A stretch of 64,000 nucleotides of DNA from Naegleria gruberi (taxonomy: Eukaryota), in NCBI GenBank assembly GCA_000004985.1, contig GG738881.1; one strand, written 5' to 3'. The notes under the pieces were generated by a model that saw only the letters and a program-made list of their open reading frames with translations, was not told the origin of the DNA and did not search any database. The translations under genes and the position numbers were made by a program. Numbering within the stretch: position 1 is the first letter of the stretch; each line of letters begins with the position of its first letter. Positions 22,886-27,129 of this stretch are shown piece after piece.

Positions 22886-24293
22886 TTACATCATCATTGG
22901 GGATTTGATTTCTTCTGGAGATTCTTGATTGAGAATTTCCTCAATATCAGCAGTTCCAGATTGGTTAAGTTGATTGGCAAGATTATGGTCTAGTTGGATG
23001 GTTGTAGAGATTTTCTCATCGAGGAAGAGAATGGTTTGATTCTCTTGAAGGAAGAGATTGAGAATGATTGGAAGATAGAGTGATATCATTTTGATATGTT
23101 TAGATTCATGATTTTCACTTTCTTGATAGCTGAGGGATTTTGTGAGAATATCAAATTTGAAAATATACTAACCTTAAATTACAAATAAATGTATTTACAG
23201 TATGAACATCGGTGATTTGATTATAAGGTACAAATAATTCAGTCTTATTCTTGTTAGAAGGGTCAATAATAGAGAATCCTGTTTCGTCCAAAATCATATA
23301 CTTTTTGTACCATCTATCATCCTTAATTAAAACTTCCAATGATGAGTGGTCCATATAATTAGGTGTTGAGTCTTTCTTTTCTGTGGTAGTGAACATATTT
23401 ACAAGTGGACCTACACTATAAGAATAGAGTCCAGAGAGATAATAATTGAATGAGGAGCTAGTAGCATTAGAGGCATTATTAGTTGTTGGAATAATAGATT
23501 GTGAGGATGTTTGAGATTGTTGTTGAGCTTCAACCTCTGCAATTGATTTCTTTGAGGTAAAATTTGAAGGTGTCAAACTCTTAATATATGAGAATGGATC
23601 CAATTTTTTACCTCTTGCTGAGTAAATGAGTCGCCCATCAGATTCTGTCTCATCTTCACTGTCCTCTCCATATTGAATTTCCTTCAAGAATCCATTCTCA
23701 TCAACTTTTAATTCAATAGCACGTTCCTTTCTCTTTTTTGAAACGGATCTTGGTTTTGATCCATACATTCTCAATTGATCCAAAACATGATTAATAACCG
23801 AACAAGCATTTGTGATACTCTTCAATCCAATAAAATAGTATGAAGTCAAATTAGTTTGAATCAATAAAACTGATTTAAATAAATAAGTAGTCTTTGATGC
23901 AAGTTGTATATCTTGAAATGGAATAATAATACAATTAGCATGACTTTTCAATTCCTTTTGTTCATTGGGAAGTTGTGTATATACATCTTCCTCTTCAATA
24001 TAACCTCCACCACTATTGCCCATCATCATGGATGAATTAATTCCTGGAACACCACTACCAACAGAAGAAGAATTATCAGCACCTCCCTTACCTCCATATT
24101 CAAATAATACAAATCTCGGAGTGATATACAAAGTACCACCTGATGGAGCCACTGTATAATTCCAATACTGACAAGGAAACTTTTTAATTAATAAAAAGGC
24201 ATGTCTATCATCGGCAATATTCACCACATTATTCATCGTTGCGTGTGTGGATGAGTTTGGAGAACCAACTCGGAACGATGATAAGTGTTGCAT
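22886..24293 (-). CDS. Hypothetical protein. Main exon 23172..24293, candidate 3' exon 22886..23129 via a 42-nt GTTAGT intron
   Basis: 380-aa ORF with no confidently recognisable domain (a C-terminal PH/GRAM-like segment is a guess). An in-frame continuation into ORF 22886..23089 is possible through gttagt...ccctcag. Confidence 0.5.
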
Positions 24294-24507
24294 TTTTTTA
24301 CTAGTTTTTGAAATTTGAATTAATTGGAGCTATTTTTACAAATTGATGAACGTGATGATTTATCATGTTGTTTTGAGATATTTGACCAATTTAGAGACAT
24401 TTTCAAAACTATTTGGTAATATTTGACCAATCAGATATTTGATTGGATAGCTGTGTGCATTGTAATATTGTTGTAAATTGTATTGTGTAATGGTTGACTA
24501 AAATCTT

Positions 24508-25133
24508 TTACATTAGTTGACAATCCCTTGTCTTTGAGAATAATTCTCTTTGGTGATTGTAATAAACAAGTGTTTTGGCAAAAATCTCTGCCAAGTATTT
24601 TGTGCTTCCCTCTCCAGTCATTGCTGAGCTTTCAACATAGGTACAACAACCTGTTGAACGAGCCATCAATTCTCCTTCACTGAAACTGATTGGTGTTGTA
24701 AAGTGTTGAAACTTTAACTCTTTTAGAACTTTTGAACTATTCCTCAAATCAGCCTGGCATCCTATTAAAATGATTGGACTGTCTGGGTTGTAATGTCTAA
24801 TTTCTGGAATCCATTTGTGTTGAATATTCTCAAAACTTATACTGGAAACAGTACTGAAGCAAGCACAAAATAAATCAGTTTCAGGATAACTAAGCGGTTT
24901 TATCCTCTCATAACTATTCCAGTATAATTAAATAGAGAGCATAACCTTTCAGTACTTACTCTTCTTGACCTTCGGTATCCCACAAATAAAAATTACAAAT
25001 CTCCTTATTATTATAATGGTATGAAACACACGAGGTATTATATGAATGATAGTAGAATTGAGGTGCATAACCGAAACCCAAATAGTGGATTAACCAGGTT
25101 TTTCCAATACGTCCATCTCCAGTAAATATCAGA
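24508..25133 (-). CDS. Rac/Rho-family small GTPase with CAAX box (CQLM). Exons 24960..25133 and 24508..24913 (46-nt intron), plus a probable 11-nt start exon 25437..25447 (ATGAATAAATT)
   Basis: LIFTGDGRIGKT (G1), [28 protein letters not shown] (switch II and Rho signature), LIGCQADLR (G4), ESSAMTG (G5), and a C-terminal CQLM. Confidence 0.75.
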
Positions 25134-25165
25134 CTGAAATTAAATTCAAAGGAGATTGATGATGG

Positions 25166-25447
25166 TCAACTTACAATCTTTTTATGATTCGACTGTTGTC
25201 CTTCTGTGCAAACTTCCTTTCTCAAATCCACACCTTTCAAAAGTTCCAAATCATTCTCCTCAATCGTTGATTTAATTTCCTCAAAATGCTGATAAAGTTC
25301 CTCCTTAATGGAATGTTTCTTGGCCACTACTTTACTTCGTTCTTTTAAAGTTTCCTCAATTTCATGTTGAACTTTTTCCTTTAATTCCAAGAATGACTTT
25401 CTCTTATCCATTTCCAAAAATACGTACAGATCATACAATTTATTCAT
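25166..25447 (-). other. 93-codon K/E-rich ORF occupying the putative first intron of the Rho GTPase gene; ends exactly at a gtaagt donor but is out of frame with the GTPase exon
   Basis: MNKLYDLYVFLEMDKRKSFLELKEKVQHEIEETLKERSKVV... reads through from the same ATG as the proposed micro-exon. Coding versus intronic status is unresolved. Confidence 0.3.
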
Positions 25448-25638
25448 TCTTTCGAATATTATTTATGAAACTCAAAATTCCTCAATTAAAGAGAAATGGA
25501 GGTGTTTCAAGAAGAAGGAATGGAACTGGTGCATAAAAAGAACCCTAATATTATTTTGTATTGGTTCTGGTTGTATGGTTATCCGTTTAGAATAAACTTA
25601 AAAACAGATTGTGAAAAGTGATTTCGAATAAATAAAAA

Positions 25639-27129
25639 ATGAACAGCATAACCAAGGCAAGACCTTGGAGACTTGCTGCAGCAATTTTAGGTATCATCTT
25701 TGTGGGTGTTTTACTATTCGAAATGATGCAGATTCGTGTAAAACCAACCTCGAAACCACCAACAATAATAGAAGTAGATCCAGTAACTACTACTACTTTG
25801 ACTAAACCTAAACAACCAGAAAAGGAATTTACAATCTGGTCAACAAGTTATCGTATGTATTATTAGTTTCGTCTAGTTTCGAATAATAATAATTTTCGAT
25901 TAGATATTTCACCGATCGAATGCTTGAAACATTTTCTTGAAAACGACTTCCGAAAGAAAACAGGAAGAAAGGTAAAAATCATTAACAAATCACTAAGTGG
26001 TCACTGTCACATCCCAAAGACATGTGCCAAAGATTTAAAAGTTTTGAATAGTGGAAATGGAGGATTTACTCCATGCAGAGAAAAAATTGGTGAAAAATTA
26101 TATGAAGCATACAAACAAGACGATGAATTCGCTTCAGTTGACTTGGTAATGTGTGATCACAATATTGCCATGTGTGAATTATATATGGCATTTGACAAGC
26201 CAATGGTTCTTCAAGCAACAACTCGTTATGAATTGTGGAGACATAGTCCAAGTGAATGGCAAAATTTAAATCAAAATCTTGAAAAAATTGTTGCTAAAAA
26301 GCACAATTCAATTGTGGCAAATAATTTATTCGATGCAAATTATGTTCAATATTTCACAGGACTTAAAATTCCAGTTTTTGATTCATATTGTGCATATACT
26401 GCTGATGAGGGAACTTATAATCCAACTAGAAGTGAATTCTTGATTGGACCATCTAGATCTTCTGCAAGTGGAGCTTTCTTTGAAACAATTAATAGATTAA
26501 TTTCTCAAGATGGAAATAAGATTCAAATTAAGGGAATTCGTCAATTGTACAGCCATTTCAAATATTCTGACTTGGCCGCTCATCCAGCCATTATTATTAT
26601 TCCATATCAAGTATCAGTTATGAGCTTTTTCGAATATTATAGAATGAATATTCCAATGTATGCTCCATCTATTGAATTATTAACTAAATGGCATGTTGAC
26701 ACTCGTATTTTGAGTGAAAGAACATGGGGTTTGGTTGGTTCTGGAGGTAATGTTGGAGCTAAAGGATCTCCTTCAGAAATGAAGAAACACCCAAATGCCA
26801 ATCTTCCAAACTTTGATCCAAACAATGATGTTGATTATACTAGTGTCTTATTTTGGAATCAATACTCTGATTTCTATCAATGGCCTAATATTATTACATT
26901 CAGTTCATGGGAAGATTTATTTGCCAAATTGAAGGGAACTACACTTGACGATTATAAGGAAATCAGCAAAAAGATGGCCATGTATAATGCTGAAGTTAGT
27001 GATTCCCTTGTCAGAAAGTGGCTTGATGTTATTGAAAGAGCTGAAAGTAAGAAGGACAAAAATCAAAAATCAACATTGACTTTTGAACAAGCAATGAAAA
27101 ACCATTGGAATATTGATATGAAATGTTAA
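25639..27129 (+). CDS. Type II (signal-anchor) membrane protein of unknown function, possibly glycosyltransferase-like. Exons 25639..25852, 25904..27129
   Basis: N-terminal WRLAAAILGIIFVGVLLF anchor, Pro/Thr stem, then a ~400-aa lumenal domain. One 51-nt intron (gtatgt...gattag). Confidence 0.6.

What the first reader, a model, noticed from the sequence alone, without database searches (positions are those of the whole stretch)
24508..25447. Rho/Rac GTPase with unresolved 5' structure: 11-nt start exon plus a 303-nt ORF-containing intron, or a frameshifted coiled-coil N-terminal extension
The GTPase core exon (24960-25133) begins in phase 2 right after a cag acceptor, so it needs two nucleotides from an upstream exon. 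The only ATG that gives a classic Rho N-terminus is ATGAATAAATT at 25437-25447, which is followed by a GTATGA donor and yields M-N-K-F-LIFTGDGRIGKT. That makes a 303-nt intron (25134-25436), six times the local norm. The same ATG also opens an uninterrupted 93-codon K/E-rich ORF that ends exactly at a gtaagt donor 41 nt before the acceptor (25175), but joining there is off by one base. Either the long intron encodes an alternative product or retained-intron isoform, or the gene carries a +1/-1 frameshift (sequencing error or pseudogenisation) in an N-terminally extended Rac.
Basis: seen in the sequence. Interest (0 to 1): 0.5.

Follow-up and report, generated by a model that had tools for sequence, protein, structure and literature searches.

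The report
Decayed Naegleria Rho GTPase gene copy
This is a broken copy of a Naegleria gruberi Rho-type GTPase gene that normally carries a long N-terminal extension; it has lost its correct splice acceptor and its original start region, was already flagged as a putative pseudogene in the literature, and is of little further interest.

Summary
The window is Naegleria gruberi, not a dictyostelid. The gene is XP_002674984.1 on the minus strand. Comparison resolves the structure. A N. gruberi paralog (XP_002673500.1) and a ~98%-identical syntenic copy of this locus from a metagenome (L002) show the ORF is exon 1 of an N-terminally extended Rho, with an F-box-like head and a helical K/E segment. 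A 41-47-nt intron follows, and its in-frame acceptor gives HKKI|IF(T/N)GDG. In the window that acceptor AG is TG (A->T at 25131). The only remaining AG (25135-25134) causes a frameshift, and the unspliced RNA meets a TGA. The window also lacks about 290 nt that encode the F-box-like head and native start codon in L002. Window vs L002 coding changes are 12 nonsynonymous to 3 synonymous. The 11-nt exon plus 303-nt intron model is not supported. The GenBank model, which splices out the P-loop, is an artefact. Herman et al. 2021 (Table S8) already list this gene as a putative pseudogene. This is an ordinary, already-known case.

The parts
25175..25447 (-). Exon 1 remnant. 91 codons of the K/E-rich helical N-terminal extension, starting at what is an internal Met in intact relatives (M79 of L002's product).
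   Evidence: Colinear with P0061/L001 (73% aa, 85% nt identity, one 3-nt indel, dN/dS 0.53). About 98% identical to L002, where it lies in frame behind an F-box-like head. An ORF this long occurs in 2/20,000 shuffles.
25134..25174 (-). Intron 1 as delimited by the only remaining AG (GTAAGT...TTTCAG, 41 nt). It contains the in-frame TGA at 25168-25166. Splicing here gives HKKI-SDIYWRW... and a stop 31 codons later.
   Evidence: After the shared GTAAGTTG the segment is only 46% identical to the paralog, and the lengths differ (41, 45 and 47 nt), which is how an intron behaves.
25130..25133 (-). TCTG: the ancestral end of intron 1. L002 reads TCAG and the paralog reads GCAG here, each giving the in-frame junction HKKI|IF(T/N)GDG. 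The window has T instead of A at 25131, so the acceptor AG is lost.
   Evidence: The junction is used in the GenBank model of XP_002673500.1 and in the manually corrected model of Herman et al. 2021, Table S8.
24960..25129 (-). Exon 2 proper: beta1, P-loop GDGRIGKT, switch I region and DTEGQE.
   Evidence: Pfam Ras family hit, E 6.8e-25 on the 196-aa model. dN/dS 0.34 against the paralog.
24914..24959 (-). Intron 2 (46 nt, GTAAGT...ATAG), conserved in position and length in L001 and L002.
24508..24913 (-). Exon 3: the rest of the G domain (CQAD, SSAM), the Rho insert, the CAAX box CQLM and the TAA stop.
   Evidence: dN/dS 0.24 against the paralog.
25453..25465 (-). Deletion junction. About 290 nt present in L002 are missing here, comprising part of the 5'UTR, the native ATG and 234 nt that code for the F-box-like N-terminus. 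The right edge is at 25453|25454. The left edge is ambiguous, within about 25458-25465.
   Evidence: tblastn finds no F-box-like segment anywhere in the window.
25427..25436 (-). GTATGA (25436) and GTACGT (25427): the phase-2 GT sites behind the '11-nt exon' model and its 20-nt variant. Both are most likely just codons.
   Evidence: Both are present as in-frame coding sequence in L002 and absent in L001 (TTATATGACCCATAT).

Best explanation
The locus is a decaying paralog, a putative pseudogene (XP_002674984.1), of a Naegleria-specific Rho ('Rac') subfamily. Intact members have an F-box-like N-terminus, a K/E-rich helical segment of about 90 residues, a short phase-0 intron, a Rho G domain with Rho insert, and a CAAX box.

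In this genome copy two lesions prevent synthesis of the full protein. First, the AG of the in-frame intron-1 acceptor has mutated to TG (A->T at 25131). Splicing to the only nearby AG (25135-25134) shifts the frame, and the unspliced RNA stops at TGA 25168-25166. Second, a deletion of about 290 nt removed the native start codon and the F-box-like head.

Shown here: the gene structure by comparison, both lesions, and near-neutral substitution since the split from L002. Inferred: that no functional GTPase is made. At most a coiled-coil peptide of 93 or 122 aa would be translated from ATG 25447.
For: - Identity: P0001 = XP_002674984.1, N. gruberi NEG-M. Window GC is 33.0%, and N. gruberi is reported at 33%.
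- Paralog XP_002673500.1 (P0151) covers 100% of the 'repaired' protein at 76% identity and is annotated with the HKKI|IFNGDG junction. Its metagenome counterpart L001 shows a 45-nt GTAAGT...CAG intron at that site.
- L002 is a syntenic, roughly 98%-identical copy with TCAG|ATATTT. It yields an intact 360-aa protein with F-box-like head, coiled coil, Rho domain and CAAX box. The window has TCTG there.
- The window lacks about 290 nt that include the native ATG and 234 coding nt.
- Window vs L002: 12 nonsynonymous and 3 synonymous codon changes, omega about 0.93. Omega of 0.24 is rejected at p=0.02. Replacements are spread over both lineages.
- The window/L002 lineage deviates from the Rho consensus at 4 conserved columns where the paralog does not, and the reverse never occurs (p=0.125, weak).
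- Independent manual curation lists XP_002674984.1 as 'putative pseudogene: yes' (Herman et al. 2021, PMC8296547, Additional file 10 Table S8). The same paper describes birth-and-death evolution of these families.
Against: - No transcript data were available, so use of an alternative donor or a non-canonical acceptor cannot be excluded.
- Exons 2 and 3 are still completely open, with no internal stop or indel, so any inactivation is recent.
- The A->T call rests on one assembly and could be a base-call error or one allele of a heterozygous site.
- Omega near 1 is based on only 15 changes and does not reject omega of 0.5.
- L002 itself has a tandem AG (TTTCAG/TCAG), and which one it uses is unknown.
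Confidence: 0.8

Rival explanations
1. Rescue isoform. After losing the F-box head and the in-frame acceptor, the gene is expressed as a conventional small Rho of 196 or 199 aa. The start is ATG 25447, the donor is GTATGA (25436) or GTACGT (25427), and splicing goes to the AG at 25134. This skips the whole coiled-coil exon as a 303- or 294-nt intron. It is the reader's first model.
For: Both joins are in frame and give a complete G domain with a normal-length N-terminus (MNKFLIFTGDG or MNKLYDLLIFTGDG) and a CAAX box. Pfam Ras E is 6.8e-25. GTACGT and GTATGA are acceptable GT donors. A 300-nt intron is within the range for N. gruberi, whose reported mean is 203 bp. Exons 2 and 3 are still open.
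Against: The skipped segment is a conserved exon in the paralog and in L002. The two GT sites lie in in-frame coding sequence in L002 and are absent in the paralog, so they were not selected as donors. Because ORF and core exon share a frame, any phase-2 GT would appear to work. Four such sites exist, so the fit is expected by chance. A much stronger donor, GTAAGT at 25174, lies next to the acceptor. Substitution since the split from L002 looks neutral. Curators found no model that could be corrected.
Confidence: 0.08
2. Assembly or base-call error, or a heterozygous allele. The real N. gruberi sequence, or the other haplotype, has TCAG at 25133-25130 and makes the coiled-coil-Rho protein from ATG 25447, without the F-box head.
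For: A single base (25131) decides between frameshift and an in-frame HKKI|IFTGDG junction, and L002 has the A. Exons 2 and 3 are intact.
Against: The same copy also carries a deletion of about 290 nt and a 2-nt intron indel relative to L002, which are not base-call errors. The substitution pattern is near neutral. Even with the A restored, an upstream AG 4 nt away would compete and the native start is gone.
Confidence: 0.08
3. The public GenBank/JGI model (239 aa) is right: exon 1 is joined at 25175 to 25000, removing 25174-25001.
For: The GT-AG borders are canonical and the join is in frame.
Against: It deletes the P-loop, beta1 and switch I, which are plainly encoded at 25129-25001 and are conserved with the paralog and L002. 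It looks like an ab initio workaround for the frame problem. Curators flagged the gene as a pseudogene rather than accept it.
Confidence: 0.02
4. The intron is retained and the TGA (25168-25166) is recoded as selenocysteine or read through. It aligns with a Cys codon (TGT) in the paralog's unspliced reading.
For: ORF and core exon share one frame with a single TGA between them, and L001 has TGT at that codon.
Against: No SECIS-like element was found in 23800-25800 even at E<=10. The segment after the TGA diverges like an intron (46% identity, length differences). L002 has a 2-nt indel there, which puts its read-through out of frame. Curated models of the paralog splice it out.
Confidence: 0.01

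Closest known systems
XP_002673500.1 (N. gruberi 'rho family GTPase', listed as 'Rac' in Herman et al. 2021 Table S8): the intact paralog
   Same: Same architecture from the helical K/E segment onward. Both introns are at the same positions, and the HKKI | IF(T/N)GDG junction and the CAAX box CQLM match. It is 76% identical over the whole repaired protein.
   Different: The window copy lacks the F-box-like head and native start, has TG instead of AG at the in-frame acceptor, and carries non-consensus residues in the DTAGQEDYDRLRP block ([13 protein letters not shown]).
L002 (ENA metagenome ERZ929261, contig k127_185445): the intact allele or ortholog of this same locus
   Same: Both flanking genes are syntenic and identity is about 98%. 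It has the same TGA inside intron 1 and the same divergent G-domain residues.
   Different: L002 keeps TCAG at the acceptor, has 2 extra nt in intron 1, and keeps the roughly 290 nt with the start codon and F-box-like head. Its product is an intact 360 aa.
F-box-GTPase fusions of Naegleria (Herman et al. 2021) and RhoBTB or TbFRP-type atypical GTPases
   Same: A small-GTPase domain is fused to a module that recruits a ubiquitin ligase. [quoted passage not shown] TbFRP combines FYVE, F-box and GTPase domains. RhoBTB pairs Rho with BTB.
   Different: In this subfamily the F-box signal is below threshold (Pfam 12.7-16.5 bits against a cutoff of 20.5; best PDB profile hit FBXO3 at E=0.11). The window copy has lost that module altogether.

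Membership tests
Rho family small GTPase (Ras superfamily) | Ras-type G domain with G1 GxxxxGK[ST], G3 DxxGQ, G4 [NT][KQ]xD and G5 SAx | tested here: met
   Pfam Ras E 6.8e-25 and Roc E 5.6e-14 on the spliced 196-aa reading. GDGRIGKT, DTEGQE, CQAD and SSAM are visible in the translation. Q in G4 also occurs in Cdc42 (TQID). These motifs are encoded in the DNA, but whether they are translated is the question at issue.
Rho family small GTPase (Ras superfamily) | Rho-specific insert helix between G4 and G5, and best hits to Rho/Rac/Cdc42 | tested here: met
   The DLRNSSKVLKELKFQHFTTPISFSEG segment aligns with the RhoA/Rac1 insert region. Top named hits are Rac, Rho and Cdc42 proteins. The gene is listed as 'Rac' in Herman et al. 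Table S8.
Rho family small GTPase (Ras superfamily) | C-terminal CAAX prenylation box | tested here: met
   CQLM followed by a stop.
Rho family small GTPase (Ras superfamily) | An intact, translatable open reading frame that links a start codon to the G domain | tested here: not met
   With the conserved gene structure, the only AG gives a frameshift and the unspliced RNA meets a TGA. It is met only under the unsupported 303/294-nt intron model.
Processed or unitary pseudogene / decaying paralog | Disabling lesion relative to intact close relatives | tested here: met
   Acceptor AG changed to TG at 25131. A 5' deletion of about 290 nt removes the start codon and N-terminal module.
Processed or unitary pseudogene / decaying paralog | Relaxed selective constraint (dN/dS near 1) | tested here: inconclusive
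   12 nonsynonymous and 3 synonymous changes against L002, omega about 0.93. This rejects omega 0.24 (p=0.02) but not 0.5. Only 15 changes were counted.
Processed or unitary pseudogene / decaying paralog | Lack of productive transcript or protein | not testable with these tools
   No N. gruberi RNA-seq junction data could be reached.
F-box protein (SCF substrate adaptor) | Recognisable F-box motif of about 40-45 residues at the N-terminus | tested here: inconclusive
   For the relatives only. Pfam F-box E is 0.0083-0.12, below the gathering cutoff, at residues 3-36 in P0061, P0151 and P0054, with no hit in P0180. The best PDB hit of a 4-sequence profile is the FBXO3 F-box, E 0.11. UniProt names P0054 an 'F-box domain-containing protein'. 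The window copy has no such segment.
Selenoprotein gene | In-frame TGA plus a SECIS element in the 3'UTR | tested here: not met
   The TGA is present, but no SECIS family match was found at E<=10 in 23800-25800.

The most novel reading that the evidence does not exclude
The broken copy has been salvaged. By using one of the GT sites just after the start codon (25436 or 25427) with the shifted AG at 25134, N. gruberi NEG-M would convert a former coding exon into a roughly 300-nt intron and express a conventional-sized Rho from what used to be an F-box-coiled-coil-Rho gene. That would be a natural example of exon 'intronisation' after a splice-site mutation and domain loss.
Probability: 0.07. 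Interest if true: 0.45.

Novelty: already known. Interest (0 to 1): 0.12.

Why it matters
It matters mainly as an annotation correction. The GenBank protein XP_002674984.1 is an artefactual model that splices out the P-loop, and the locus should be treated as a pseudogene, as Herman et al. 2021 already flagged. What this analysis adds is the mechanism: loss of the acceptor AG at 25131 plus a 5' deletion, both revealed by an intact near-identical allele in a metagenome. It is one small, concrete example of the birth-and-death turnover reported for the very large Rho family of Naegleria (more than 80 genes). It raises no new biological question.

Tried and rejected
The 93-aa ORF and the GenBank proteins were not on record as called genes.
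2. A scan of JGI metagenome contigs for the exon 1-intron 1-exon 2 junction pattern found nothing.
3. Selenocysteine recoding of the TGA: no SECIS element.
4. The 60-nt intron using GTCGAA at 25193 and the 264-nt intron using GTCATT at 25397 are in frame. I rejected both on general splicing knowledge, because the +3 position is C, which makes a poor donor. Neither was tested experimentally.
5. I first read a switch-I Thr->Gln change as a sign of decay in the window copy. I withdraw it. RhoA and this protein have the same 38-residue spacing between GKT and WDT, and a gapless alignment places RhoA Thr37 opposite Ser in the window and Pro in the paralog, so the claim depended on the alignment.
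6. Lys->Gln in the NKxD motif is not a defect, because Cdc42 has TQID.
7. The relative-rate test against the Rho consensus (4 to 0) is only suggestive (p=0.125).
8. The genome paper (Fritz-Laylin 2010) is not held, so no species-wide splice-site consensus could be cited.

Full report
**What is there**

The gene lies on the minus strand.

- A core exon at 25133-24960 sits behind a TTTCAG acceptor and starts in phase 2.
- A 46-nt intron (24959-24914) follows.
- A last exon (24913-24508) ends in the CAAX box CQLM and a TAA stop.
- ATG 25447 followed by GTATGA can be joined to 25133. This removes 303 nt and gives a 196-aa protein that matches Pfam Ras (E 6.8e-25).
- The same ATG opens a 93-codon K/E-rich ORF that ends just after a GTAAGT at 25174.

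First, the ORF and the core exon are in the same reading frame, separated by one TGA (25168-25166). Because of this, any phase-2 GT inside the ORF looks like a usable donor. Second, four such GT sites exist: GTATGA at 25436, GTACGT at 25427, GTCATT at 25397 and GTCGAA at 25193. The ORF itself is not a chance feature, since only 2 of 20,000 shuffles keep an ORF of 93 codons or more.

**Source organism and existing annotation**

The only close database hit is the Naegleria gruberi 'small GTPase', accession XP_002674984.1 / EFC42240.1 from strain NEG-M. The window's 33.0% GC matches that genome's reported 33%. The source is therefore not a dictyostelid.

Reported mean intron length in N. gruberi is 203 bp, and introns down to about 30 bp were allowed in Naegleria mapping. 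Neither 303 nt nor 41 nt is disqualifying on length alone.

The GenBank model (239 aa) is a third structure. It joins ...HKKI at 25175 to ICNFYLWDTEGQ at 25000, which removes 25174-25001. That throws away the P-loop, beta1 and switch I.

**Relatives that resolve the structure**

An exhaustive HMMER search with the GenBank protein found P0061, which matches the K/E-rich ORF at 69% identity. Its DNA is L001, a 1,270-nt metagenome contig. L001 aligns colinearly with the window from the ATG through the ORF, the 41-nt segment, the core exon, intron 2 and exon 3.

| Segment | nt identity | aa identity | dN/dS |
|---|---|---|---|
| ORF (exon 1) | 85% | 73% | 0.53 |
| Core exon (exon 2) | 79% | 66% | 0.34 |
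| Last exon (exon 3) | 91% | 87% | 0.24 |
| Short segment after the shared GTAAGTTG | 46% | n/a | n/a |

The ORF has one 3-nt indel and no frameshift. The short segment also differs in length, 41 nt in the window against 45 nt in L001. The ORF therefore behaves as an exon and the short segment as an intron.

In L001 the acceptor AG lies 4 nt further 3' (…ACGCAG|ATATTT). That gives HKKI|IFNGDGSVGKT, a beta1 strand with the same spacing as RhoA's RKKLVIVGDG. L001 lacks both the GTATGA and GTACGT sites.

A profile search then recovered three more proteins.

- **XP_002673500.1 (P0151, 354 aa).** This second N. gruberi gene covers the whole repaired protein at 76% identity. It is annotated with exactly that HKKI|IFNGDG junction and has an F-box-like N-terminus. 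L001 is its close counterpart.
- **P0054.** This N. lovaniensis protein has the same layout and is named an F-box domain-containing protein by UniProt.
- **P0180.** This metagenome protein is 92% identical to the window's ORF.

**The decisive comparison**

The contig carrying P0180 is L002, which is 3,391 nt long and comes from the same sample as L001. It is a syntenic copy of the window locus at about 98% identity. The start of the upstream divergent gene and the whole spacer to the downstream gene align. Three differences matter.

1. At the end of intron 1, L002 reads TTTCAGTCAG|ATATTT and the window reads TTTCAGTCTG ATATTT. L002 thus keeps the in-frame acceptor used in the paralog. With it, L002 encodes an intact 360-aa protein with F-box-like head, coiled coil, Rho domain and CAAX box. 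The window has T for A at 25131. Its only AG (25135-25134) gives ...HKKI-SDIYWRW... and a stop 31 codons later.
2. The window lacks about 290 nt that in L002 hold part of the 5'UTR, the native ATG and 234 coding nt of the F-box-like head. The right edge is at 25453|25454. Because the paralog and N. lovaniensis both have this head, its absence is a deletion in the window lineage. tblastn finds no remnant elsewhere in the window.
3. There is a 2-nt indel inside intron 1. This also shows that the read-through frame is not conserved.

The GTATGA and GTACGT sites are present in L002, but as ordinary in-frame codons (K-L-Y-D-P-Y-V-F) downstream of the F-box-like head.

**Selection**

Between the window and L002 there are 12 nonsynonymous and 3 synonymous codon differences, giving omega of about 0.93. 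That is unlikely under the omega of 0.24 seen in exon 3 between the paralogs (p=0.02), but it does not reject omega of 0.5.

Polarising with the paralog assigns about five replacements to the window lineage and four to five to L002. The relaxation, or rapid change, therefore predates or is shared by both lineages.

Against a Rho consensus, the window/L002 lineage deviates at four conserved columns where the paralog does not (DTAGQEDYDRLRP becomes [13 protein letters not shown]), and the reverse never happens. This is only suggestive at p=0.125.

I withdraw an earlier impression that a switch-I Thr had been lost, because that alignment is ambiguous. Gln in the NKxD motif is normal for Cdc42.

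**Alternatives tested**

- Selenocysteine or read-through of the TGA: no SECIS-like match at E<=10, and the downstream segment evolves as an intron.
- More natural copies of the junction: none in JGI metagenomes.
- Transcript-level look-ups were not possible.

**Comparison with the literature**

Herman et al. 2021 (PMC8296547) manually curated the Naegleria Ras-superfamily genes. Their supplementary text reports three relevant points.

- N. gruberi has more than 80 Rho genes.
- Coding-sequence-disrupting mutations suggest birth-and-death evolution.

Their Table S8 gives a corrected model of XP_002673500.1 with HKKIIFNGDG and GQEDYDRLRP. It lists 'Rac, XP_002674984.1, putative pseudogene: yes' with no corrected sequence. 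My independent conclusion therefore matches published curation.

The F-box assignment for this particular subfamily stays below threshold in my tests. Pfam scores are 12.7-16.5 bits against a cutoff of 20.5. The best PDB profile hit is the FBXO3 F-box at E=0.11.

**Verdict**

The lesion is a lost acceptor AG at 25131 plus a 5' deletion, not an indel at 25170-25180.

The 11-nt exon with a 303-nt intron is an artefact of the shared reading frame. It survives only as a low-probability 'rescue isoform' that RNA-seq could test.

The case is ordinary and already recorded. Its practical value is to document why the GenBank model is wrong.

Noticed in passing
window 24378-24390 and 24419-24431 (minus strand): The exact 13-mer ATTGGTCAAATAT occurs twice, 41 nt apart, in the spacer between the GTPase stop codon (24508) and the ATG of the next gene (24293). 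By chance, 11 of 100 shuffles give two or more matches. The spacer from about 24300 to 24507 is almost identical to L002, more conserved than the GTPase coding sequence. The motif contains ATTGG (an inverted CCAAT), so it may be a promoter element of the downstream gene.
   Followed up: partly
window 23151-24293 (minus strand); L002 1738-2949: The downstream same-strand ORF of 380 aa (MQHLSSFRVGSPNSS...) is syntenic with a 403-aa called gene in L002. Its function was not examined.
   Followed up: no
window 25639-25866 and 25924-27129 (plus strand): A divergently oriented neighbour starts only about 190 nt upstream of ATG 25447. It comprises a 75-aa ORF with a hydrophobic N-terminal segment, followed 57 nt later by a 401-aa ORF. 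This is probably one two-exon gene. Its first codons are also on L002 (1-162, minus strand).
   Followed up: no
L002 964-973 (TTTCAGTCAG): The intact allele has two AGs 4 nt apart at the end of intron 1, and only the second is in frame. The likely branch-site motif TTTAAT, which is also present in intron 2, lies only about 6 nt before the first AG. This may explain why the second AG is used, and how the window lineage could drift into losing it.
   Followed up: partly
P0151 = XP_002673500.1 (N. gruberi, other scaffold): The GenBank model of the intact paralog mis-splices intron 2. It reads ...WDTAGQEE|LRPLSY and so lacks DYDR. L001 and the corrected model of Herman et al. give GQEDYDRLRPLSY.
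   Followed up: yes
L001 and L002 (ENA ERZ929261 / ERR1078381, PRJEB11402): One metagenome sample contains contigs from a Naegleria very close to N. gruberi NEG-M: about 98% identity at this locus and near-identity to the paralog XP_002673500.1. It could serve as a second-strain reference for checking other doubtful NEG-M gene models.
   Followed up: no
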